Below, piece after piece: positions 1,129 to 17,893 of a stretch of DNA of 18,003 nt (its first letter is position 1; each line of letters begins with the position of its first letter). The notes below the pieces were generated by a model that searched no databases, was not told the origin of the DNA, and worked only from the letters and a program-made list of their open reading frames with translations. The DNA lies in IMG/VR virus record IMGVR_UViG_3300021279_000020; one strand, written 5' to 3'. The position numbers and the translations under genes were made by a program. The DNA is from a virus. Taxonomy: Duplodnaviria; Heunggongvirae; Uroviricota; Caudoviricetes.

Positions 1129-1133
1129 GCCCA

Positions 1134-1160
1134 TAAAAAAAGCCCCTCCGGAGAGGGGCT
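1134..1160 (-). terminator. Rho-independent terminator (8-bp stem AGCCCCTC/GAGGGGCT, 4-nt loop, then U7 on the minus strand)
   Basis: Plus strand shows AAAAAAA then AGCCCCTCCGGAGAGGGGCT; on the minus strand this is hairpin followed by TTTTTTT. It lies downstream of the TerB / small-peptide pair. Confidence 0.6.
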
Positions 1161-1403
1161 GACGCTGCGTATCTGTATCATCATGCGCATGGTGCCGGGT
1201 GCCTCCCGGTGAGTTCAGTATCAGCACCTGAACCCGCACAGAAAGGATAAGGGATGTAACCAAACACCTGTCGCTGATATGCCCCTCCGCACAGGGGGAT
1301 TCACCATGCAGGATTTTTTTAACAAATTCTCAGTCGGGCAGACAACTGTCAACCGTCTGAATTGTGAGACATTTAAAATTTTCGGGGCATGACTGATACC
1401 CGG

Positions 1404-2165: not shown

Positions 2166-2242
2166 TGGCGCGTTGTACTGGATTCGAACCAATGACCGAT
2201 TGCTTAGAAGGCAATTGCTCTGTCCGGCTGAGCTAACAACGC
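2166..2242 (-). tRNA. tRNA-Arg (anticodon UCU), 77 nt
   Basis: Reverse complement folds as a canonical cloverleaf: acceptor GCGTTGT/ACAACGC, D-arm GCTC..GAGC, anticodon stem ATTGC/GCAAT with loop CTTCTAA, T-loop GGTTCGAATCC, discriminator G and encoded CCA. Confidence 0.9.
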
Positions 2243-2255
2243 AGTGTACCGATAA

Positions 2256-2332
2256 TGGACCGCCATCGAGGACTCGACCCCCGCGCAACCAGCTTCGAAG
2301 GCTGGCGCTCTGTCCCGATGAGCTAATGGCGG
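2256..2332 (-). tRNA. tRNA-Arg-like (anticodon UCG), 77 nt, non-canonical features (C1:G72 acceptor pair, T-loop GUCGAGU)
   Basis: Reverse complement: acceptor CCGCCAT/ATGGCGG, D-arm GCTC..GAGC, anticodon stem CCAGC/GCTGG with loop CTTCGAA, T-stem CGGGG/CCTCG, encoded CCA. Confidence 0.7.
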
Positions 2333-2341
2333 TATGTGATA

Positions 2342-2417
2342 TGGTGGCCCTTGCTGGATTTGAACCAGCGACCTGGCGATTATGAGTCGCTCGCTCTCAC
2401 CACTGAGCTAAAGGGCC
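2342..2417 (-). tRNA. tRNA with CAU anticodon, most similar in my recollection to tRNA-Ile2 (ileX-like, lysidine-modified), 76 nt
   Basis: Reverse complement GGCCCTTTAGCTCAGTGGTGAGAGCGAGCGACTCATAATCGCCAGGTCGCTGGTTCAAATCCAGCAAGGGCCACCA gives a complete cloverleaf with anticodon loop CTCATAA. Confidence 0.88.
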
Positions 2418-2457: not shown

Positions 2458-3516
2458 TCATCCGTTCTGACTGACTAAATCCTGAACTTCCCTGACCGTC
2501 TGCTCAAAACGTTCAGTCTCCAGCTCAACGCCAGTTGCACGACGTCCCAGCGCCATCGCTGCTTTGACTGTCGAACCCGACCCCATGAAAAAATCTGCAA
2601 CCAGGTCACCCGGACGACTGCTCGCGCTGATTATCTGCTGCAGCATTTCTGCTGGTTTTTCGCACGGATGTTTCCCGGGATAGTACTGCACCGGTTTATG
2701 CGTCCACACATCGGTGTACGGAACCTGCGCCGTCACGCCAAAATACCGCCGCAGATACTTATATTCACTCTGCAGTTCCGCATACTGCCGGTTCAGTTCA
2801 CTGTATGTGCTGACCAGTTGGTGATGTAGCTTTTCCAGTTCTCCGCGCTGATGCTTCTCTTCTGCCACCCGGGCAAACAGCGCCTGTAATTTCAGATAAT
2901 CGCTTTCGTCCGGTAGCTGCCACTGGCTGGCACTGAACCAGTGCGACACCATGTTTTTCTTTCCTGTGGCATCAGCAATCTGTTTTGCCGTTATCCCCAG
3001 GGCAGCACGTGCATCACGAAAGTAAGAAATCAGCGGGGCCATCACATGCTGTTTCAGTGCCCTGCCCTTCGCCTCATACCCGGCATCTTTCGGGCGATAC
3101 GGCCCCTGATAATGTTCCGCGAACAGAATGCGCTCTGTGGCGGGGAAATACGCCCGCAGGCTTTCCTTGTTGCACCCGTTCCAGCGTCCGGACGGCTTCG
3201 CCCAGATAATATGGTTCAGCACACTGAAGCGTTCACGCATCATGATTTCAATGTCAGACGCCAGGCGATGACCACAGAACAGGTAAAGACTTCCGGCAGG
3301 TTTCAGCACCCGCCAGAACTGCGCAAGACACTGGTCCAGCCATTTCAGGTAATCCTCATCCCCCGTCCACTGGTTATCCCAGCCCTCGGGCTTCACTTTA
3401 AAGTATGGCGGGTCTGTGACTATCAGATCGACAGAGTTTTCCGGTAAGGTCTGGATAAATTCCAGGCAATCAGCGTTGATTAGCTCACAACTGGATATTT
3501 TTACAGTATTAGCCAT
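2458..3516 (-). CDS. Orphan DNA methyltransferase (beta-class N6-adenine/N4-cytosine type), 352 aa
   Basis: Track ORF with ATG at 3516. Motif IV LIVTDPPY is near the N-terminus and the AdoMet motif FFMGSGST near the C-terminus. No adjacent endonuclease candidate. Confidence 0.9.
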   Translation of the reverse strand: MANTVKISSCELINADCLEFIQTLPENSVDLIVTDPPYFKVKPEGWDNQWTGDEDYLKWLDQCLAQFWRVLKPAGSLYLFCGHRLASDIEIMMRERFSVLNHIIWAKPSGRWNGCNKESLRAYFPATERILFAEHYQGPYRPKDAGYEAKGRALKQHVMAPLISYFRDARAALGITAKQIADATGKKNMVSHWFSASQWQLPDESDYLKLQALFARVAEEKHQRGELEKLHHQLVSTYSELNRQYAELQSEYKYLRRYFGVTAQVPYTDVWTHKPVQYYPGKHPCEKPAEMLQQIISASSRPGDLVADFFMGSGSTVKAAMALGRRATGVELETERFEQTVREVQDLVSQNG

Positions 3517-4080: not shown

Positions 4081-4653
4081 TTATTGATCAGTTTGCAACA
4101 TTTTTTTCTCTGTAACAAAAGCCATACGCATGGGGGCATGTAACATAAATTCAGATATCCCCAACCACTGATCAATTCGGCGTCTGCACGTAACCAACGT
4201 CCACTCAGGATGATCTGCATTTAACCTTTCGGCCATTTTCAGTTTGCTCATTCCCCGTCCTTCGTACCTTTGCCGGAGAATATTGATTAGTCCGGGATAT
4301 TCCCCAAGCACCTCACTGATAACGCGATCAATAATCAACGCCTCTGTGTCTGTACAATGTGACAACCAGCTCTTCTGCTTCCCTCTGGTCATATCCCGAA
4401 AAAATGCCTCAAGTTCCGGTTTATCCAGCCCGGATTTCTTCATTCTGCGTAAAACTTCATTAACTGCTGTTTTCGTCAGCTTTTTCGAAACCAGTAACCG
4501 GTTAAACATATTTCCGGATTTACCCCCACCGATATACGACCACCGCCCCCACATCCGTAATTTCCCCTGGATCCAGACTGCTTCCAGCGTGTTCAGGCGT
4601 AAATGTTCGCCGCTTTTGCCTGTAATTTCCGGATATATCATATTTACGCTCAC
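4081..4653 (-). CDS. Putative late-gene antiterminator (Q-like by position, possibly QuuQ-type), 190 aa; GTG start overlapping the rusA stop (alternative ATG at 4641)
   Basis: Track ORF. It sits directly downstream of rusA and upstream of terminators, tRNAs and late-region cargo, which is the canonical Q position. I see no homology to lambda Q and no zinc-finger cysteines, so the family assignment is positional. Confidence 0.5.
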   Translation of the reverse strand: MSVNMIYPEITGKSGEHLRLNTLEAVWIQGKLRMWGRWSYIGGGKSGNMFNRLLVSKKLTKTAVNEVLRRMKKSGLDKPELEAFFRDMTRGKQKSWLSHCTDTEALIIDRVISEVLGEYPGLINILRQRYEGRGMSKLKMAERLNADHPEWTLVTCRRRIDQWLGISEFMLHAPMRMAFVTEKKMLQTDQ

Positions 4654-6513: not shown

Positions 6514-6669
6514 TTACTTCTCAGATTCGTAGTCTACGAAGACAGCAACCTCCGTCTGGCCGGTTCGGATTCGTACCTCGCAGAGGTCTTTCCTCGTTAC
6601 CAGTGCCGTCACTATGACGGTTAAACAGATGACGATCAGGGCGATTAACATCGCCTTTTGCTGCTTCAT
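6514..6669 (-). CDS. hok: Hok/Gef-family type I toxin, 51 aa (MKQQKAMLIALIVICLTVIVTALVTRKDLCEVRIRTGQTEVAVFVDYESEK)
   Basis: Near-identity by recollection to E. coli HokD/RelF. Single TM helix followed by a conserved C-terminal region. Confidence 0.88.
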   Translation of the reverse strand: MKQQKAMLIALIVICLTVIVTALVTRKDLCEVRIRTGQTEVAVFVDYESEK

Positions 6670-6726
6670 AGTCTGCTTCTCCTTGACCTTTCGGTCCGTA
6701 AGAGGCAATCTATATGTGACGAGCAT
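6514..6726 (-). CDS. mok: Mok-like in-frame N-terminal extension reading frame over hok (MLVTYRLPLTDRKVKEKQT then Hok)
   Basis: Track ORF 6514..6726. The extension matches my recollection of the MokC N-terminus (MLNTCRVPLTDRKVKEKRA). Confidence 0.6.
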   Translation of the reverse strand: MLVTYRLPLTDRKVKEKQTMKQQKAMLIALIVICLTVIVTALVTRKDLCEVRIRTGQTEVAVFVDYESEK

Positions 6727-6780
6727 ATAGGGGCCTCACTTCGATTTATAGTCGGGTGGGGCTTTTATCTATCTGCCGTT
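6715..6780 (+). ncRNA. sok: Possible Sok-like antisense RNA opposite the mok start; coordinates approximate
   Basis: Inferred from hok/mok architecture. A plus-strand -35-like TTGACC sits at 6683-6688. I could not place the -10 or the terminator with confidence. Confidence 0.3.
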
Positions 6781-6914
6781 GGTGTTCATGCCCGAGGCAG
6801 ATAGCCTCAAGCACCCGCAGCAATTCTACAAAAACAAACTATTATTTTCTATGTCCTTTCACTTGTCTCATTTCTGACTATACTGATCGCTCACACAACA
6901 CAAAAGGTATAAAA

Positions 6915-11970: not shown

Positions 11971-12493
11971 ACGAACCCCAGACAGATATTTGTTTATCTG
12001 CAAAGTAATGTTGGTATTGCTGACGATACGCACGCTTGAAAGCAATGGCTTTTTCTATAAGCTCGTCAGTCTCACGTTCCACAACAACTGGATCCGCAAA
12101 AAGCAGCCCGGACTCCACCACATCGCCATACTCTTTGTTTAACCCGGCGATCATGTACGTAATGCTTTTTCCGTCAGTAATTTCACAATACAACCTGAAA
12201 TCACTTACCCGGATAGCCTCCATAATTGCCGGAATCAGCGCCGTGAATTTTTCACGCTTATCCCTGGTGTCGATAGCCTTCCAGCGTTCGAATATCTTCA
12301 CTCGATTAACGCCCAGCGCCCGTTGATCAACCTCGCCATCATTAAACGTGACGCGTTGAACATCGATGTTCGGGCGTTCTTTCAGAGCCCAGAATGCTTC
12401 CGTGATTAATATCGTCGCCTGCTCCTGTGTCATTCCTGGTCGGCATACCCAGGCATCCAGAGCCTCACAAACCTGTTCAGGGGTGATTTTCAT
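11942..12493 (-). CDS. CII-position protein, 183 aa (possibly YdaT-like)
   Basis: Track ORF with ATG 12493. Located between the Cro-like gene and O. Family assignment is tentative. Confidence 0.65.
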   Translation of the reverse strand: MKITPEQVCEALDAWVCRPGMTQEQATILITEAFWALKERPNIDVQRVTFNDGEVDQRALGVNRVKIFERWKAIDTRDKREKFTALIPAIMEAIRVSDFRLYCEITDGKSITYMIAGLNKEYGDVVESGLLFADPVVVERETDELIEKAIAFKRAYRQQYQHYFADKQISVWGSYEYRCTTMG

Positions 12494-12743
12494 TGTTCAC
12501 CGCCAGTGATTCATTCGCTGTAGGCTTAATCCTGCCAATAGTCAAAACCGCATCAGCAGAAAATAATCCGTTTGATGCCAGAGCAATTTTTTCAGCGTAA
12601 TTTGTTTCGCCTGTATATTCTGTGCGCGGTAATTTTCCATTATTCATCCATTTGTAGATTGCTCTTTGGCTGACACCGCAAACATCGGCTACAACAGAAA
12701 CGCGAACTGCTTTGATTACATCTGCAAGTGTTGCATGGCTCAT
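12477..12743 (-). CDS. Cro-like HTH regulator (YdaS/Cro family), 88 aa
   Basis: Internal ATG 12743 of track ORF 12477..12815, with SD GAGGG 6 nt upstream. HTH segment VADVCGVSQRAIYKWMNNGKLP. Divergent from the CI-like gene. Confidence 0.75.
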   Translation of the reverse strand: MSHATLADVIKAVRVSVVADVCGVSQRAIYKWMNNGKLPRTEYTGETNYAEKIALASNGLFSADAVLTIGRIKPTANESLAVNNENHP

Positions 12744-12822
12744 ATCACCCTCACAATGTGAACTTTGAGTACACAATATAACAGAACTGACAGTACATTC
12801 AATAGCAAATATCATTGAACTT
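12744..12822. promoter_or_regulatory. Divergent cro/cI intergenic region (oR-like) carrying an AGTACATT operator-like motif
   Basis: 79-bp AT-rich intergenic region between divergent regulators; AGTACATT at 12792-12799 and AGTACA at about 12768. Confidence 0.4.
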
Positions 12823-13242
12823 ATGGTTCATGAAGATGAAGCGCGTAAAGAGTTCGCCAGCAGGCTTGCGCTAGCCTGTGAAAATGCTGGCTTTGAACAA
12901 CACGGAAGGCAGGCAGAAATTGCCCGTCGAATGAAGCTAACACCCAAAGCGGTTAGTAAATGGTTTAATGGAGAGACAATTCCCCGTCGAGAGAAACTGA
13001 AAGAATTGGCAGCACTTATCGGAACAACACCAACTTACCTTCTGGGGGAGGACACTGAAGAAAGCGGAAGCCTGCGTTTCTATCAGGAGTTAAGTCCGAG
13101 GCAAAAAATCATCATTGAACTTCTTGATGAACTCCCTGACAGTGAAACTGATGAACTTTTAAAAACTCTTGAGGAGAAAAAACAGAAGTACAACGCAATT
13201 TATGAAGAATTAGCGCGAAAGAAAAAACAAAAAGCCTCATGA
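12823..13242 (+). CDS. CI-like repressor, HTH_XRE N-terminal domain with coiled-coil C-terminus, 139 aa; no S24/LexA-type peptidase domain
   Basis: Track ORF. HTH segment GRQAEIARRMKLTPKAVSKWFNGE. The C-terminus is Lys/Glu-rich and helical, and the protein is too short for a peptidase domain. Confidence 0.8.
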   Translation: MVHEDEARKEFASRLALACENAGFEQHGRQAEIARRMKLTPKAVSKWFNGETIPRREKLKELAALIGTTPTYLLGEDTEESGSLRFYQELSPRQKIIIELLDELPDSETDELLKTLEEKKQKYNAIYEELARKKKQKAS

Positions 13243-13299: not shown

Positions 13300-13365
13300 T
13301 ATTTTATCCCTCACAAAAATGTACTAAAAGTACTTTACATTAGTGAACAATAAGTACATTATATC
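13300..13365. promoter_or_regulatory. oL/pL-like operator region: inverted 8-mers AATGTACT (13318-13325) and AGTACATT (13353-13360)
   Basis: The same 8-mer is present in the cro/cI intergenic region, and further GTAC-centred repeats lie between the two copies here. Confidence 0.35.
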
Positions 13366-13537
13366 AACCAACCACCCCACCCACAGAACGCCAGGCAATA
13401 CTTCGAGTTACCCGGCAGTGGTCAGGAGTTAAGTAGCCAGCCCGAGGCGTATGAACATGACGGCGGGAACACTTTGTATAACAGCGCAGCAGGTTTTTAG
13501 TTCCGCTACCCCGGCGTTAAGGGGAAATGAGGTCAAC

Positions 13538-13690
13538 ATGGATACGCTCAATCTTGGCAACAACGAATCTCTGGTATGCGGTGTGTTCCCTAACCAGGAC
13601 GGCACGTTTACCGCGATGACGTATACCAAAAGTAAAAAGTTTAAAACCGAAGCTGGCGCGCGTCGCTGGTTAGCCAGAAACACTAACTGA
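13538..13690 (+). CDS. Small early protein, 50 aa (possibly DUF1391/YdfA-like); alternative start ATG 13451
   Basis: Track ORF 13451..13690. SD GAGG lies 7 nt upstream of ATG 13538. Confidence 0.5.
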   Translation: MDTLNLGNNESLVCGVFPNQDGTFTAMTYTKSKKFKTEAGARRWLARNTN

Positions 13691-14180
13691 TTAGCACCAG
13701 TAAAAACAGGTTGCCACTGGTTAATTTACCCTGAAAAGTCAGGGCATAACACGAAAGCGCACGGCGAAGTTCGTATATCTGTACGGCGTCGTTAAATTTT
13801 CTTCGACCGTGCACTTCCGGTTGTGGCAATCCGCGAAATGGCGCGGCGGTAAGTATGGCTGGGGTTTCCTCCATTGCTCCAGAAAATGCACCGGGTTGTC
13901 AGGTTGACCATACGCTTAAGTGACAGCCCCGCCACAATACCCATGTGTAGTCTTTGGTGGCATCAGTTCTACTCCGTGACTGCTCTGCCACCCTTTTTAA
14001 AGTGAATTTTGTGATGCGGTGAATGCGGCTATGCGCACGCGGAACAGTTAAAACCGTAAAGTGGTCTTTTACGGGGCGTAACGGGCATACTTCTGTATTC
14101 CGGCGTTAATTGTTAACTGGTTAACGTCACCTGGAGGCACCAGGCACCACATCACAAAATTCATTGTTGAGGACGCGATA

Positions 14181-14369
14181 ATGGAAACGTTATTACCAAA
14201 CGTTAATACGTCTGAAGGGTGTTTTGATATTGGTGTTCTGCTCAGTAACCGGGAGTTTACTGAAGATGCCATTAAGATGAGAAAATATGAGCCTTATCTT
14301 CTCAATGATAATTCCATACTCTCCAGAATTGCCCTTCTTAAACTTGGTATTTTCGGGGGGCAGCAGTGA
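14181..14369 (+). CDS. Hypothetical small protein, 62 aa
   Basis: Track ORF with SD GAGGA 8 nt upstream of ATG 14181. Confidence 0.55.
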   Translation: METLLPNVNTSEGCFDIGVLLSNREFTEDAIKMRKYEPYLLNDNSILSRIALLKLGIFGGQQ

Positions 14370-14554
14370 CTTCTGCATTTGCACTGGTAATGACTGTTTT
14401 TCTTATAACGGGTGAGCCACAGAATGTGATTACCGGAATTTATGCCAGTAAAGAATCATGCCTCCGTACAAGAGACGAGCAAAAAATTTCTGGCGAATGC
14501 CTCCCGTTAAAAAAAGTATCGCTGTACCTGAATAACGAAATACCGGCTGGATAA
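14366..14554 (+). CDS. Hypothetical small protein, 62 aa, with hydrophobic N-terminus (signal-peptide or TM-like); GTG start overlapping the upstream stop (GTGA)
   Basis: Track ORF. GGGGGG lies 5 nt upstream of GTG 14366. N-terminus TSAFALVMTVFLITG. Confidence 0.5.
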   Translation: MTSAFALVMTVFLITGEPQNVITGIYASKESCLRTRDEQKISGECLPLKKVSLYLNNEIPAG

Positions 14555-14646
14555 TCCACCAGCCATATTAACGCCATACCCGTTGATTAAGCATGCCAGC
14601 AATGGCAGGGGTTCGTACAACCTTAAAATAGTTATGAGGTTTATCC

Positions 14647-16311
14647 ATGAGCACTGATAAAGAAGAATTTTCGCTATATTGCGAAGCAAAAAATGACAAG
14701 GTCAGAAAACGCCTTGGGATTAAAGGGGGTTTTTACTGGACTACAGCAAAAAAATTATCTGTTGCCATCTCACGGTGCGTTGTTGCAATGGACGAGGCAG
14801 GCTACGACGCTGATGATTTCAAAAAACCTGTCCGCGTCCATTTCCCCGTTGTGAATGACCTTCCACCGGAAGGCGTGTTTGATACCGAATTCTGCAACCG
14901 CTATGAAAAAGGCGGGGAAGATGGCATCACAATGATATTTATAGCGCCTTCCCCCTCAGTTCAGGACAAACCAGCCAGCACTGACAATACCAACGTCAAT
15001 GGCGAAGACATGGCTGAGATTGAGGATAATATGCTCCTGCCGATTTCCGGTCAGGAACTGCCCATTCGCTGGCTTGCGCAACATGGCAGCGAAAAACCGG
15101 TAACGCACGTTTCACGGGAAGAACTTCAGGCATTACATATCGCACGAGCTGAAGAACTACCGGCTGTTACTGGCCTGGCTATTTCCCACAACACAAAGCT
15201 GCTCGACCCGCTGGAGATTCGCGACCTTCACAAACTGGTACGCGACACAGACAAAGTTTTCCCTAATCCCGTTAATTCCAGTCTGGGGTTAATGACTGCT
15301 TTTTTCGAAGCATACCTGAACGCTGACTATACCGATCGAGGTCTGCTGACAAAAGAGTGGATGAAAGGAAATCGTGTTTCTCGCATCACCCGCACGGCTT
15401 CCGGTGCAAATGCCGGTGGCGGAAATAAAACGGATCGTAATCCTGATTTAGTACACACCCTCGATACTCTGGATGTGGAGATTGCAGCAGCCACACTTCC
15501 GATGGATTTTAATATTTATGAAATTCCCGTGAGCGTTTATCGTCGCGCAAAAGAAATCGTCCTGAAAAAAGAAAGTCCGTTCAGGGAATGGTCCCCAGCA
15601 CTTCGCGCAACCCCTGGTATCCTGGACTATTCCCGCGCAGCTATTTTTGCACTTATCCGGAGCGCCCACCCTGAGTTTTATCACTACCCGGGACGTCTTC
15701 AGGGGTATATCAATGCCAACCTGACAGAGACCGATCACGAGAATCCCACAGCTGAAACGCTCATGGCTGCCCGGCATACACCGGAAAAAGATATCCTGGA
15801 AGAAATTAACCGCGAGCTGGCTGCTGAGTGCAAAACAGAAGAAGAAAAAAATGATGAAGAAAACCCGCAACCATCTGGCGCAATGGCAGATGAACAGGCA
15901 ACGGCTGAAACAATGGCAGCGGATACAGTTGAACATCATCAGGACCCGCAGCCGCTGGATGACAAGTCACAGGTAAAAGTTACCGCTGAAGAAGTAAATA
16001 AAATTATGGAGGCAGCAGACATCAGTCGACCAGATGCAGACAAATTGCTTGCCGCTTCCCGTGGTGAGTTCGTTGAAGGCATCAGTGACCCTGCCGATCC
16101 GAAGTGGGTTAAGGGGATCCAGAGTCGCGACGCCGAGGACCAGAACCAGCAAGAAACAGAACAGAACGGTCAGAAAGCGGAACAAAACAGCCCAAATGCG
16201 TTACAAAACGAGCCAGAAACGAAACAACCTGAACCAGTCGTGCAACATACCAGGAGACATTCAACGAAGAAAGCCAGGATGAAGCCCGGGAGAAAGATCC
16301 AGAGGAAATGA
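14647..16311 (+). CDS. RecE (exodeoxyribonuclease VIII) N-terminal-region-like protein, 554 aa, with a long acidic low-complexity C-terminal tail; no recognisable nuclease domain
   Basis: Track ORF with SD GAGGT 8 nt upstream. The segment NTNVNGEDM..EIE.NMLLPISGQELPIRWLAQHGSEKPVTHVSR...NADYTDRGLLTKEWMKGNRVS matches my recollection of the non-catalytic N-terminal part of RecE. Unverified. Confidence 0.65.
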   Translation: MSTDKEEFSLYCEAKNDKVRKRLGIKGGFYWTTAKKLSVAISRCVVAMDEAGYDADDFKKPVRVHFPVVNDLPPEGVFDTEFCNRYEKGGEDGITMIFIAPSPSVQDKPASTDNTNVNGEDMAEIEDNMLLPISGQELPIRWLAQHGSEKPVTHVSREELQALHIARAEELPAVTGLAISHNTKLLDPLEIRDLHKLVRDTDKVFPNPVNSSLGLMTAFFEAYLNADYTDRGLLTKEWMKGNRVSRITRTASGANAGGGNKTDRNPDLVHTLDTLDVEIAAATLPMDFNIYEIPVSVYRRAKEIVLKKESPFREWSPALRATPGILDYSRAAIFALIRSAHPEFYHYPGRLQGYINANLTETDHENPTAETLMAARHTPEKDILEEINRELAAECKTEEEKNDEENPQPSGAMADEQATAETMAADTVEHHQDPQPLDDKSQVKVTAEEVNKIMEAADISRPDADKLLAASRGEFVEGISDPADPKWVKGIQSRDAEDQNQQETEQNGQKAEQNSPNALQNEPETKQPEPVVQHTRRHSTKKARMKPGRKIQRK

Positions 16312-17000
16312 AAAGTGCCGTATACCCGAACAAGGAGTGCACCGAAGGCGATCAACATGCCAATGGCAATAATGAAACAGGCGAGACAGCAAATCCCTTA
16401 ATTAAGGTGAGCGGTCATCATGAAAGCACATCCACCAGCAGGTTGTGGCACCATCTGATGATTGACCTTGAAACAATGGGCAAAAATCCTGATGCGCCAA
16501 TAGCCTCAATAGGCGCTGTATTTTTCGATCCACAAACCGGAGAGCAGGGGCCTGAATTCAGCAAAATAATTGATATGGGTACATGTGGCGGCACTGTAGA
16601 CATAAGCACCATCGAATGGTGGCTTCAACGCTCTGGCGAAGCCCGTGCCGCCATTTTAGCTGATCGAATACCGCTTGATGATGCGCTTTTACAATTACGG
16701 GAATTTATAGACGAAAACTCCGGTGAGTTTTTTGTTCAGGTCTGGGGAAATGGAGCCAACTTCGACAACGTGATTTTACGCCGTTCATATGAACGGCAGG
16801 AGATCCCCTGCCCGTGGCGTTACACCAATGATCGCGATGTAAGAACGATGGTCGCTCTGGGGTTGGTGATGGATTTCGATGCCCGCAACGTCACCACATT
16901 TGAGGGTGAACGCCATAATGCCCTGCACGATGCGCGTTACCAGGCAAAATACGTTTCAGTTATCTGGCAAAAACTGTTCCCGAATCAGGCTGATTTTTAA
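16308..17000 (+). CDS. DEDDh-family 3'-5' exonuclease (DnaQ-like), 230 aa; ATG overlapping the upstream stop (ATGA)
   Basis: Track ORF. Exo I motif MIDLETMG, Exo II WGNGANFD and Exo III HNALHDARY. Alternative start at Met51 (16458). Confidence 0.85.
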   Translation: MKSAVYPNKECTEGDQHANGNNETGETANPLIKVSGHHESTSTSRLWHHLMIDLETMGKNPDAPIASIGAVFFDPQTGEQGPEFSKIIDMGTCGGTVDISTIEWWLQRSGEARAAILADRIPLDDALLQLREFIDENSGEFFVQVWGNGANFDNVILRRSYERQEIPCPWRYTNDRDVRTMVALGLVMDFDARNVTTFEGERHNALHDARYQAKYVSVIWQKLFPNQADF

Positions 17001-17070: not shown

Positions 17071-17322
17071 ATGAGTGAAGTAATCATGATTGTCTCTCCC
17101 GGCAAATGGGTATCTGAAGAGCAGTTAATTGCGCTGAAAGGAATAAAAAAAGGAACACTGAAAAAAGCCAGGGAAAAATCATTTATGGAAGGGAGAGAGT
17201 ATAAACATGTCGCTCATGACGGCATGCCGTGGGATAACAGCCCATGTTTTTACAATCTGGAAGAAATTGATCGCTGGATCGAGCGTCAGGCATCGGCAAG
17301 GCCAAGACGTCACCTTGCTTAA
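17071..17322 (+). CDS. Excisionase-like small DNA-binding protein (Xis/DUF1233-like), 83 aa
   Basis: Track ORF immediately upstream of the integrase; small basic protein with EGREY and W motifs. Alternative start ATG 17086. Confidence 0.55.
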   Translation: MSEVIMIVSPGKWVSEEQLIALKGIKKGTLKKAREKSFMEGREYKHVAHDGMPWDNSPCFYNLEEIDRWIERQASARPRRHLA

Positions 17323-17356: not shown

Positions 17357-17893
17357 ATGAAATATCCGACAGGCGTAGAAAAACACGGGGGGACATTACG
17401 CATCTGGTTTGTTTATAAAGGCGTAAGAGTCAGGGAAAACCTCGGTGTCCCTGACACAGTAAAAAACAGACGCATCGCTGGTGAACTACGCGCTTCTGTT
17501 TGTTACGCAATAAAAACGGGGATTTTTGACTACGCAAAACAGTTCCCCTACTCCCACAATCTGGAAAAATTTGGGGAAGCCAGACAAAATTTGACGATAG
17601 GTGAACTGGCCGAAAAATTTCTGGCACTAAAAGAGGCCGAAGTTGCCAGAAGTTCACTCAATACATACCGTGCCGTCATCAAAAATATCCTGAGCATAAT
17701 CGGTGAAAAAAATCTTGCCTCATCGATTAATAAAGAAAAATTACTGGAGGTTCGTAAAGAGTTACTGACTGGATACCAGATCCCCAAAAGTAACTATATT
17801 GTTACACAACCCGGGAGATCGGCTGTTACCGTAAATAATTACATGACAAATCTTAACGCCGTGTTCCAGTTTGGTGGTAAGCGTACAGCCTGA
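17357..17893 (+). pseudogene. Tyrosine integrase N-terminal fragment (arm-binding plus core-binding regions only, 178 aa); the reading frame ends and the catalytic domain is missing
   Basis: Track ORF with N-terminus MKYPTGVEKHGGTLRIWFVYKG typical of integrase arm-binding domains. All three forward frames hit stops within about 30 nt after 17893. Confidence 0.65.

What the first reader, a model, noticed from the sequence alone, without database searches (positions are those of the whole stretch)
14181..14554. Two coupled small early ORFs, one with a signal/TM-like N-terminus
These sit in the early-left operon between the immunity region and the recombination genes, where lambdoid phages carry kil, cIII, sieB-type host-interaction or exclusion genes. 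The second ORF starts by a GTGA overlap and begins with a hydrophobic segment. I recognise neither.
Basis: partly seen in the sequence, partly recalled or inferred. Interest (0 to 1): 0.45.

Follow-up and report, generated by a model that had tools for sequence, protein, structure and literature searches.

The report
Prophage dicB and ydfD-like genes
The two small overlapping genes are the known prophage cell-division inhibitor dicB and a relative of the known lysis gene ydfD, found in most E. coli genomes, so the finding is real but ordinary.

Summary
ORF1 (14181-14369) and ORF2 (14366-14554) are each 62 codons. They overlap by GTGA, and ORF2 opens with a 16-residue uncharged hydrophobic stretch. 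Neither gene is new.

- **ORF1 is dicB:** Pfam DicB E = 1.4e-36, NCBIfam above its cut-off, 61% identical to K-12 DicB, and 100% identical to a RefSeq DicB.
- **ORF2 is a DUF1482 protein:** this is the family of the Qin lysis protein YdfD (Pfam E = 3.7e-15; 47% identical over the full length).
- **Context is the classical dicBF operon of a lambdoid prophage:** repressor, ydfA-like gene, DicF sRNA (13942-13993), dicB, ydfD-like gene, RecE-type exonuclease, xis, int.
- **Conservation:** the 4-nt overlap is kept in 13 of 13 loci, and dN/dS is 0.1-0.35.

The likely mechanism is inferred from K-12 work. On derepression, DicB binds MinC, blocks the Z ring and blocks ManYZ-dependent phage entry. The coupled YdfD-like protein is a division-dependent lysis factor that DicB holds in check.

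Caveats for this allele are that it lacks L63 and its C-terminal part is not acidic. A co-varying Cys pair and an AlphaFold model (pLDDT 80) suggest the hydrophobic N-terminus is a beta-hairpin strand, not a membrane helix.

Verdict: already known, low interest.

The parts
12477..12815 (-). Cro/DicC-position regulator. A 112-aa helix-turn-helix protein transcribed divergently, towards the replication genes.
   Evidence: Weak Pfam HTH_17 match, E = 1.1e-4. It occupies the same position as dicC in K-12 Qin and other loci. Assigned by position; homology to DicC itself was not shown.
12823..13242 (+). Immunity repressor in the DicA/CI position (139 aa, HTH_3).
   Evidence: Pfam HTH_3 E = 5e-10. 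The NCBIfam DicA subfamily scores 57.8 bits, below its cut-off of 101. This is therefore a different immunity type in the same position.
13334..13362 (+). Candidate early-left promoter, equivalent to dicBp/PL: TTTACA-17-CATTAT.
   Evidence: Consensus scan only, 9 of 12 matches. The scan found no more promoter-like sites than in shuffled sequence. The intergenic sequence does not align with K-12 dicBp. The assignment is inferred.
13538..13690 (+). ydfA-like gene (DUF1391), the first gene of the operon.
   Evidence: Pfam DUF1391 E = 5.4e-29 on residues 31-77 of the 13451..13690 ORF. The conserved start region aligns with the annotated 50-aa genes of other loci.
13942..13993 (+). DicF small RNA.
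   Evidence: Rfam RF00039, 61.1 bits against a gathering score of 48, E = 1.7e-11, full model. It aligns with K-12 dicF and gives the same predicted fold, with a compensatory GGCGG/CCGCC to GGUGG/CCACC change.
14181..14369 (+). dicB, the cell-division inhibition protein (62 aa). This is ORF1 of the finding.
   Evidence: Pfam DicB E = 1.4e-36, 1-62 of 62. NCBIfam NF049927 scores 111.2 bits against a cut-off of 100. It is 61% identical to K-12 DicB and 100% identical to RefSeq WP_000449173.1, annotated as DicB. dN/dS is 0.11-0.23.
14366..14554 (+). ydfD-like gene, DUF1482 family (62 aa, GTG start, GTGA overlap with dicB). This is ORF2 of the finding.
   Evidence: Pfam DUF1482 E = 3.7e-15, 56 bits against a cut-off of 25. 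PHROG 1092 E = 3.8e-32. It is 47% identical over the full length to K-12 'lysis protein YdfD'. There are 104 close relatives named DUF1482. dN/dS is 0.14-0.35, and the overlap is conserved in 13 of 13 loci.
14647..17000 (+). RecE-family / 3'-5' exonuclease gene, here split into two ORFs (14647..16311 and 16308..17000).
   Evidence: Pfam Exonuc_VIII and Rv2179c-like domains. NCBIfam exodeoxyribonuclease VIII positions 1-530 of 877. tblastn against a one-piece 823-aa homologue changes frame near 16245.
17071..17322 (+). Excisionase-like gene (DUF1233).
   Evidence: Pfam E = 1.6e-31.
17357..17893 (+). Integrase N-terminal part (178 aa), truncated.
   Evidence: Only the Pfam Arm-DNA-bind_2 and Phage_int_SAM_3 domains match. 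Stop codons occur in all three frames downstream.

Best explanation
**What it is.** The two ORFs are dicB and the gene that follows it in the dicBF operon, a member of the YdfD/DUF1482 family. They lie in the early-left (PL-type) operon of a mosaic, partly decayed lambdoid prophage of Escherichia.

**How it most likely works.**
1. The immunity repressor at 12823-13242 keeps the operon off. This step is inferred from its position and from K-12 DicA.
2. On derepression, one transcript carries ydfA-like, DicF, dicB and ydfD-like. The gene order is shown here. A single ydfABC-dicFB-ydfD transcript was shown for K-12 (PMC10448788).
3. DicF RNA is cut out of the transcript and represses ftsZ translation.
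4. DicB binds MinC and takes it to the septum through ZipA. This dissolves the Z ring, so cells filament. Through the same MinC interaction, DicB blocks ManYZ, the inner-membrane entry route of lambda-like phages. It is therefore both a Kil-like division inhibitor and an exclusion factor. This was shown for K-12 DicB (PMC6832061). It is inferred here from 61% identity and family membership.
5. Ribosomes that finish dicB restart at the overlapping GTG, so the YdfD-like protein is made only together with DicB and probably in smaller amounts. The conserved overlap is shown; the coupling is inferred.
6. In K-12, YdfD lyses dividing cells. DicB or SulA suppresses that lysis, and YdfD is reported to bind IspG and block isoprenoid, and hence cell-wall precursor, supply (PMC8835842).

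The pair therefore behaves as a division brake plus a division-dependent killer, with the brake made first.

**Fold of the ORF2 product.** It is best read as a small beta-beta-alpha-beta protein whose hydrophobic N-terminus is a hairpin strand and a likely binding surface. This is a prediction.
For: **Identity**
- Pfam DicB E = 1.4e-36 and DUF1482 E = 3.7e-15.
- NCBIfam DicB above its cut-off.
- 61% and 47% full-length identity to K-12 DicB and YdfD.
- RefSeq annotation of identical or 97% identical genes as DicB and DUF1482.

**Operon context**
- DicF by Rfam at 13942-13993.
- ydfA-like, repressor, exonuclease, xis and int genes.
- Same gene order in K-12 Qin, PPompW and Stx2a phages, mEp460 and several E. 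coli chromosomes.

**Selection and coupling**
- dN/dS of 0.11-0.35.
- RTGA overlap and an upstream purine-rich motif in 13 of 13 loci.

**Function in K-12**
- PMC6832061 for DicB-MinC-ZipA and ManYZ exclusion.
- PMC8835842 for YdfD lysis, suppression by DicB/SulA, IspG binding and rescue.
- PMC10448788 for the ydfABC-dicFB-ydfD transcript and DicA repression.
- PMC5069750 for DicF and for the same flanking genes in many strains.

**Fold**
- G16, C32 and C45 are invariant in 20 family representatives, and Cys12/Cys18 occur together or not at all (6 both, 14 neither, 0 single).
- AlphaFold2 on 25 diverse sequences gives pLDDT 80.2, with strands 5-12 and 18-26, helix 29-39 and strand 43-47.
Against: **No experiment on this allele.** All functional steps are transferred from K-12 proteins that are 61% (DicB) and 47% (YdfD) identical.

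**Differences in the window's YdfD-like protein**
- It ends at ...PAG and lacks L63. In K-12 YdfD, deleting L63 or changing it to Ala abolished killing on plates (PMC8835842, section 2.4). The tail after PAG does vary across the family, though.
- Its part from residue 23 to the end has net charge +1, against -2 in K-12. The published idea that an acidic C-domain competes with the IspG substrate therefore does not transfer.

**Other gaps**
- NCBIfam has no YdfD model that it matches.
- The IspG mechanism rests on one paper with pull-down and overexpression evidence.
- Klebsiella phages carry DUF1482 in the same slot without dicB, so the DicB-YdfD pairing is not obligatory.
- No + strand intrinsic terminator follows ORF2, so the end of the transcript is unknown.
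- The promoter is only a consensus match.
- The hairpin model comes from an alignment-dependent prediction. A shallow alignment gave a low-confidence helix instead.
Confidence: 0.9

Rival explanations
1. ORF2 encodes a membrane-anchored or exported small protein, which is the reader's 'signal/TM-like' reading. The hydrophobic N-terminus would insert in the inner membrane or be cleaved after the invariant G16. The Cys32/Cys45 domain would then act on the envelope, for example on septal wall synthesis or as an exclusion or holin-like factor, rather than on cytoplasmic IspG.
For: - The N-terminus is a hydrophobic, uncharged 16-residue segment.
- The motif [ILV]-[TS]-G followed by E fits the -3/-1 rule for signal peptidase. 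This is my own reading of the sequence. G16 is invariant.
- There are two invariant cysteines, as in disulfide-bonded periplasmic peptides.
- Two distant family members have longer N-termini that start with K/R (P0132, P0149).
- YdfD lysis depends on cell division (PMC8835842).
- From memory, Masuda et al. 2016 proposed association with the cytoplasmic membrane. That paper is not in the library.
Against: - The hydrophobic core is only 11-12 residues, too short to span a bilayer as a helix.
- Nearly all members lack a positively charged n-region.
- The Cys12/Cys18 pair co-occurs across the T-G-E turn.
- The pLDDT-80 model puts residues 5-12 in a beta-hairpin inside a compact fold.
- Per PMC8835842, citing Masuda, the C-terminal part without the hydrophobic segment is still toxic.
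- His- and GST-tagged YdfD were handled in solution, and extra IspG or its product rescued cells (PMC8835842).
Confidence: 0.2
2. This allele of the DUF1482 gene does not lyse cells. It has diverged to another role, such as tuning DicB or another host target, or it is on the way to decay. If so, the K-12 YdfD function does not apply here.
For: - It is only 47% identical to K-12 YdfD.
- It lacks L63, whose loss abolished killing in K-12 YdfD (PMC8835842).
- The charge of the C-terminal part is reversed.
- Some alleles are frameshifted, for example strain OkiPb01713.
- The surrounding prophage carries a split exonuclease gene and a truncated integrase.
Against: - Purifying selection acts within this 62-aa allele class (dN/dS 0.14-0.35).
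- The family-invariant residues are all kept.
- The 62-aa ...PAG form is the commonest in its subfamily: 59 of 104 close relatives are 62 aa long. It also occurs in PPompW and Stx2a phage genome records.
- The tail after PAG is variable across the family, so L63 is not a family requirement.
Confidence: 0.25
3. The ORFs are homologues of the classical lambda early-left genes the reader listed: kil, cIII or sieB.
For: Only the map position and the small size support this.
Against: Pfam, NCBIfam and PHROG searches give DicB and DUF1482 as the only families matched. PADLOC gives nothing. The resemblance to Kil and to exclusion genes is functional, not homology.
Confidence: 0.01
4. The ORFs are chance open frames in a non-coding leader.
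For: Short ORFs are common in the window: 79 of at least 60 aa.
Against: Full-length family matches, dN/dS well below 1, conserved length, start and overlap in 13 loci, and annotation in RefSeq and phage records.
Confidence: 0.01

Closest known systems
DicB of the Qin cryptic prophage, E. coli K-12 (Pfam PF05358, NCBIfam NF049927)
   Same: - Same length (62 aa).
- 61% identity over the full length, with the N-terminal 35 residues nearly identical.
- Same place downstream of DicF, with a nearly invariant leader.
- Same 4-nt overlap with the next gene.
   Different: - The C-terminal half is diverged (YEPYLLNDNSILSRIALLKLGIFGGQQ against QERELLNKICIVSMLARLRLMPKGCAQ).
- It belongs to the allele class common in STEC and PPompW-type prophages.
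- MinC/ZipA binding and ManYZ inhibition are untested for this class.
YdfD lysis protein of Qin, E. coli K-12 (Pfam DUF1482, PF07358)
   Same: - 47% identity from end to end.
- Same hydrophobic N-terminus, G16-E17, Cys32 and Cys45, the EQK..G.C.P motif and PAG near the end.
- Same position and overlap after dicB.
   Different: - 62 rather than 63 aa, with no terminal Leu.
- GTG start instead of ATG.
- The part from residue 23 onward has net charge +1 instead of -2.
- Lysis and IspG binding are untested.
Lambda Kil and Rac KilR (prophage early-left division inhibitors)
   Same: Small proteins from the PL-side operon that stop Z-ring formation on induction. This is the same biological role and map position as DicB, by established knowledge.
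   Different: No sequence relationship was found. By established knowledge, lambda Kil acts on FtsZ/ZipA directly. DicB works through MinC (PMC6832061).
Single-gene lysis proteins (phiX174 E, Qbeta A2, LysM)
   Same: Small phage proteins that lyse growing cells by blocking supply or use of a cell-wall precursor. PMC8835842 draws this comparison for YdfD.
   Different: They come from unrelated families and from small lytic phages. YdfD-type genes sit in the early operon of temperate phages that also have normal holin/endolysin cassettes, so lysis is probably not their natural end purpose. That last point is inference.
SieB / superinfection exclusion genes of lambdoid phages
   Same: DicB lowers plating of lambda-like phages about 100-fold by blocking ManYZ-dependent DNA entry (PMC6832061). 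This is an exclusion phenotype from the same genome region.
   Different: No homology was found, and no PADLOC defence model matches.

Membership tests
DicB (PF05358 / NF049927) | Full-length match to the family profile above the curated cut-offs | tested here: met
   Pfam 124.4 bits against 27. NCBIfam 111.2 bits against 100. Residues 1-62 align to profile positions 1-62.
DicB (PF05358 / NF049927) | About 62 aa, encoded downstream of dicF in an operon next to a dicA/dicC-type immunity region | tested here: met
   62 aa. DicF at 13942-13993, a repressor and a divergent regulator at 12477-13242, and ydfA-like at 13538-13690.
DicB (PF05358 / NF049927) | Binds MinC and needs ZipA to reach the septum. 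Expression causes MinC-dependent filamentation. | not testable with these tools
   Known for K-12 DicB only (PMC6832061). No solved structure or mapped interface is available for comparison.
DicB (PF05358 / NF049927) | Inhibits ManYZ-dependent phage entry and mannose use | not testable with these tools
   PMC6832061 for K-12. No test is possible in silico.
YdfD / DUF1482 (PF07358) | Match to the family profile above the gathering score | tested here: met
   56 bits against 25, residues 4-61 on profile positions 1-57. PHROG 1092 E = 3.8e-32.
YdfD / DUF1482 (PF07358) | Family-invariant residues: G16, C32 and C45 (plus L7 and the EQ..G.C.P motif) | tested here: met
   All are present in the window protein. 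They are invariant in 20 to 25 diverse members.
YdfD / DUF1482 (PF07358) | Hydrophobic N-terminal segment | tested here: met
   MTSAFALVMTVFLITG, with the first charge at residue 17. Whether it spans the membrane is unresolved.
YdfD / DUF1482 (PF07358) | Sits directly after dicB with a 4-nt start/stop overlap (Escherichia members) | tested here: met
   GTGA here and RTGA in 13 of 13 loci. This does not define the family as a whole: the Klebsiella phage members lack dicB.
YdfD / DUF1482 (PF07358) | Intact C-terminus including L63, required for killing by K-12 YdfD | tested here: not met
   The window protein ends at G62. The requirement is from PMC8835842. The tail is variable in the family, so this lowers confidence in 'lytic like K-12 YdfD' but not in family membership.
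YdfD / DUF1482 (PF07358) | Causes division-dependent lysis, binds IspG, and is rescued by ispG or HMBPP | not testable with these tools
   PMC8835842 for K-12 YdfD only.
   No such family appears among the Pfam, NCBIfam, PHROG or PADLOC matches.

The most novel reading that the evidence does not exclude
The hydrophobic N-terminus of YdfD-family proteins may not be a membrane anchor or signal peptide at all. It could be the first strand of a beta-hairpin in a compact beta-beta-alpha-beta mini-domain, locked by an extra Cys12-Cys18 pair in one subgroup. It would then serve as a sticky protein-binding surface. If so, the published 'membrane-associated lysis protein' picture needs revising. The conserved co-translation with DicB, and with other small partners in Klebsiella phages, would then mark a poison/brake pair that lambdoid phages use early after induction, not a lysis device.
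Probability: 0.3. Interest if true: 0.35.

Novelty: already known. Interest (0 to 1): 0.12.

Why it matters
It matters little as a discovery. dicB has been known since the 1980s, and ydfD has been described as a lysis gene since 2016. 4633 of 5426 complete E. coli genomes match this region, and about a thousand carry this same allele class.

The result is useful for annotation. The window's two 'unrecognised' ORFs, together with the DicF RNA just upstream, form the dicBF host-takeover module of a Stx-phage-like prophage.

A small open point remains. The allele class found here is common in STEC prophages. It differs from the only tested YdfD in features reported as important: the terminal Leu and the acidic C-domain. 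The family's fold prediction also disagrees with the membrane-anchor picture. A cheap expression and topology experiment would settle both points.

Tried and rejected
no such family was matched in Pfam, NCBIfam, PHROGs or PADLOC.
- **Opposite-strand ORFs under the finding** (14069..14272, 14193..14384, 14440..14577, 14507..14689): no family match. Rejected as chance frames.
- **Solved structures by sequence:** nothing for DicB, and only chance-level hits for ORF2.
- **AlphaFold2 on a shallow alignment of near-identical sequences:** pLDDT 57, unusable. Repeating with 25 diverse family members gave pLDDT 80.
- **Intrinsic terminator after ORF2:** none on the + strand, only a stem without a T-run.
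- **RNA structure in the conserved dicB leader:** z = -1.28, not significant.
- **Genome-contig scan with the family alignment:** only 5 loci, because the search patterns were narrow. It is not a good measure of spread. One hit sits in a 'Veillonella' MAG and is probably a binning artefact.
- **Masuda et al. 2016 (PMC5975272):** not in the library. Its content is cited through PMC8835842 or marked as recalled from memory.
- **Literature search for DUF1482:** no paper in the library uses the term.

Full report
**1. The observation**

Window 14181..14369 is a 62-codon ATG ORF and 14366..14554 is a 62-codon GTG ORF. The junction reads ...CAGCAGTGACTT..., so the GTG of the second ORF overlaps the TGA of the first by four bases. 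GAGGA lies 8 nt before the first start, and a G-run lies 6 nt before the second. The second protein begins MTSAFALVMTVFLITG and has no charged residue before E17.

A 62-codon ORF is not significant in itself, because the window has 79 ORFs of at least 60 aa. The test of reality has to come from homology and conservation.

**2. What the ORFs are**

- **ORF1 is DicB.**
  - It matches Pfam DicB over its whole length (E = 1.4e-36, 124 bits against a gathering score of 27).
  - It matches NCBIfam 'cell division inhibition protein DicB' above the curated cut-off (111.2 against 100).
  - It is 61% identical to K-12 DicB.
  - It is 100% identical to a RefSeq protein annotated as DicB in E. coli strain 48.
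- **ORF2 is a DUF1482 protein.**
  - It matches Pfam DUF1482 (E = 3.7e-15, 56 bits against 25) and PHROG 1092.
  - It is 47% identical, end to end and without gaps, to the K-12 protein that RefSeq calls 'lysis protein YdfD'.
  - A search of 5.8 billion proteins returned 104 close relatives. Nearly all are from E. coli and named 'DUF1482 family protein'. Most (59 of 104) are 62 aa long, and they usually end in ...PAG like the window's copy.

**3. Context**

Rfam finds the DicF small RNA at 13942-13993 on the same strand (61 bits against a gathering score of 48). Upstream lie a ydfA-like DUF1391 gene, an HTH repressor (12823-13242) and a divergent HTH gene (12477-12815). The divergent gene is followed by YdaT-like, DnaT/O-like and lambda-P-like replication genes, hok/sok, RusA, a Q-type antiterminator, three tRNAs and a DNA methylase. 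Downstream lie a RecE-family exonuclease, an excisionase and an integrase.

The order ydfA - dicF - dicB - ydfD - exonuclease is the same in the following:
- K-12 Qin;
- the PPompW and Stx2a phages of EHEC;
- phage mEp460;
- several E. coli chromosomes.

4633 of 5426 complete E. coli genomes match this region, and 1017 match at least 80% of it. The whole window is a mosaic. The best complete genome covers 75% of it at 96.6% identity.

**4. Conservation**

- In all 13 loci that hold both genes, the second gene starts at an RTG that overlaps the dicB stop by four bases. A purine-rich motif precedes it.
- Among six alleles of the window's class, Nei-Gojobori dN/dS is 0.11-0.23 for dicB and 0.14-0.35 for the ydfD-like gene. 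Against the K-12 class it is 0.35-0.49, with dS near or above 1.
- The ORFs on the opposite strand match nothing.

**5. Mechanism, and what is shown against what is inferred**

The sequence-level parts are shown here: gene identity, order, overlap and selection. The biochemical steps come from K-12.

- **Regulation and transcript.** The operon is repressed by DicA and transcribed from dicBp upstream of ydfA. [quoted passage not shown]
- **DicF.** It represses ftsZ through its 3' part (PMC5069750).
- **DicB.** It binds MinC, and the complex is taken to the septum by ZipA and breaks up the Z ring. Through the same MinC contact, DicB blocks ManYZ. This lowers infection by lambda-like phages about 100-fold and impairs growth on mannose (PMC6832061).
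- **YdfD.** It lyses growing cells, and co-expressed DicB or SulA prevents this. It is reported to bind IspG, and extra IspG or its product rescues cells (PMC8835842).

I infer three things. The window's genes do the same. The overlap couples ORF2 translation to dicB. The brake (DicB) is therefore always made with, and ahead of, the killer.

The promoter I list (13334-13362) is only a consensus match. The region does not align with K-12 dicBp, as expected for a different immunity type. No + strand terminator follows ORF2.

**6. Caveats for the ydfD-like allele**

- PMC8835842 reports that removing or changing the last residue (L63) of K-12 YdfD abolishes killing. The window protein ends one residue earlier, at G62. 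Across the family the tail after PAG is variable: nothing, L, LKTAP, FTVQM or VSF. L63 is therefore not a family feature.
- The same paper proposes that an acidic C-domain competes with the IspG substrate. In the window protein, residues 23 to the end carry net +1, against -2 in K-12.
- Klebsiella phages carry a DUF1482 gene in the same slot, preceded by unrelated small ORFs and no DicB homologue.

Family membership is secure. 'Lytic through IspG' is a moderate inference.

**7. The hydrophobic N-terminus**

- **Family size.** A profile search of 1.84 billion cluster representatives found only 53 family members.
- **Conserved residues.** In 20 full-length representatives, G16, C32 and C45 are invariant. 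Positions 12 and 18 are Cys in both (6 members) or in neither (14), never in one alone. Position 12 lies inside the hydrophobic stretch and position 18 lies just after the T-G-E motif. A co-occurring pair there argues for a turn at 13-17.
- **Structure prediction.** AlphaFold2 on near-identical sequences gave a poor model (pLDDT 57). On 25 diverse members it gave pLDDT 80.2 and pTM 0.62. The elements are strand 5-12, turn, strand 18-26, helix 29-39, strand 43-47 and helix 48-55.
- **Length argument.** The hydrophobic core is only 11-12 residues, too short for a membrane-spanning helix.

I therefore favour a small soluble beta-beta-alpha-beta domain with a sticky hairpin. That fits the report that the N-terminal 28 residues of YdfD carry the IspG contact and that tagged YdfD was handled in solution (PMC8835842).

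The membrane or signal reading is not excluded. The [ILV]-[TS]-G/E motif could be a signal-peptidase site, and two distant members have K/R-bearing, longer N-termini.

**8. Comparison with known systems, and verdict**

Both genes are members of named families and sit in their canonical operon. Identical or nearly identical proteins are already annotated in RefSeq. They are not homologues of kil, cIII or sieB.

- **Novelty:** already known.
- **Interest:** low (0.12).
- **Residual interest:** the untested allele class and the structural question about the N-terminus.

Noticed in passing
window 13942-13993 (and 13925-13945 upstream): The DicF copy is a variant. Its 3' part, which pairs with ftsZ, is identical to K-12. 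The 5' arm, which pairs with xylR in K-12, differs at several bases, and 14 nt are missing just upstream. The stem shows a compensatory change, GGCGG/CCGCC to GGUGG/CCACC, that keeps the same predicted fold (PMC5069750). Its target range may differ from that of K-12 DicF.
   Followed up: partly
window 14100-14180: The untranslated leader just before dicB is almost invariant among four otherwise diverged prophages, and better conserved than the coding sequences. It contains a GTTAAC-rich palindromic stretch and a CCTGG...CCAGG hairpin. The predicted structure is not significant (z = -1.28). It could be a processing or regulatory site.
   Followed up: partly
window 14647-17000: The RecE-family / 3'-5' exonuclease gene is split into two ORFs of 554 and 230 aa that overlap by ATGA. 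Compared with a one-piece 823-aa homologue, the frame changes near 16245. The PPompW phage record also notes a frameshift in its copy.
   Followed up: partly
window 17357-17893: The integrase ORF stops after 178 aa, keeping only the arm-binding and SAM-like N-terminal domains. All three frames downstream contain stops. Together with the split exonuclease gene, this suggests a decaying, possibly cryptic prophage.
   Followed up: partly
family alignment (P0123, P0126, P0137, P0138, P0144, P0145; locus L006 2501-2695): In the DUF1482 family an extra pair of cysteines at positions 12 and 18 is always present together or absent together: 6 both, 14 neither, 0 single. This could be a disulfide or part of a four-Cys metal site. 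It may reflect a single clade. The window protein has F12 and P18.
   Followed up: partly
L005 2143-2692 and L006 2273-2695 (Klebsiella phages): DUF1482 genes occupy the same repressor-to-exonuclease slot. They are preceded by unrelated small ORFs (83 and 37 aa; 72 and 40 aa), again with a 4-nt overlap, and there is no DicB homologue. The partner of the YdfD-like gene is replaceable.
   Followed up: partly
L002 4291-5146 (E. coli strain 48): The closest relative of the window's dicB/ydfD-like genes (99% identity) has a frameshifted Rha-family regulator gene inserted between DicF and dicB. This insertion is absent from the window.
   Followed up: no
L012 2901-3090 (E. coli OkiPb01713): The DUF1482 gene of this allele class is frameshifted in this strain, while dicB is intact. 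Loss of the second gene is tolerated.
   Followed up: no
window 6514-6816, minus strand: A hok/sok toxin-antisense RNA module lies inside the prophage. The Hok/Gef protein is at 6514..6726 and the sok RNA at 6667-6816.
   Followed up: no
window 1129-1338 and 2169-2417, minus strand: An STnc100 small RNA (147 bits) and three tRNA genes lie downstream of a Q-type antiterminator (4081..4653) and a DNA methylase (2458..3516). This is the layout seen upstream of toxin genes in Stx-type phages.
   Followed up: no
window 13683-13874, minus strand: A 63-aa ORF antisense to the ydfA-DicF spacer is annotated as a hypothetical protein at the same place in strain 48. It matches no family.
   Followed up: no
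L008 (contig JAGZPX010000007.1): A dicB/ydfD pair of the K-12 class sits in a metagenome bin labelled Veillonella parvula. This is probably an E. coli contig mis-binned into that genome.
   Followed up: no
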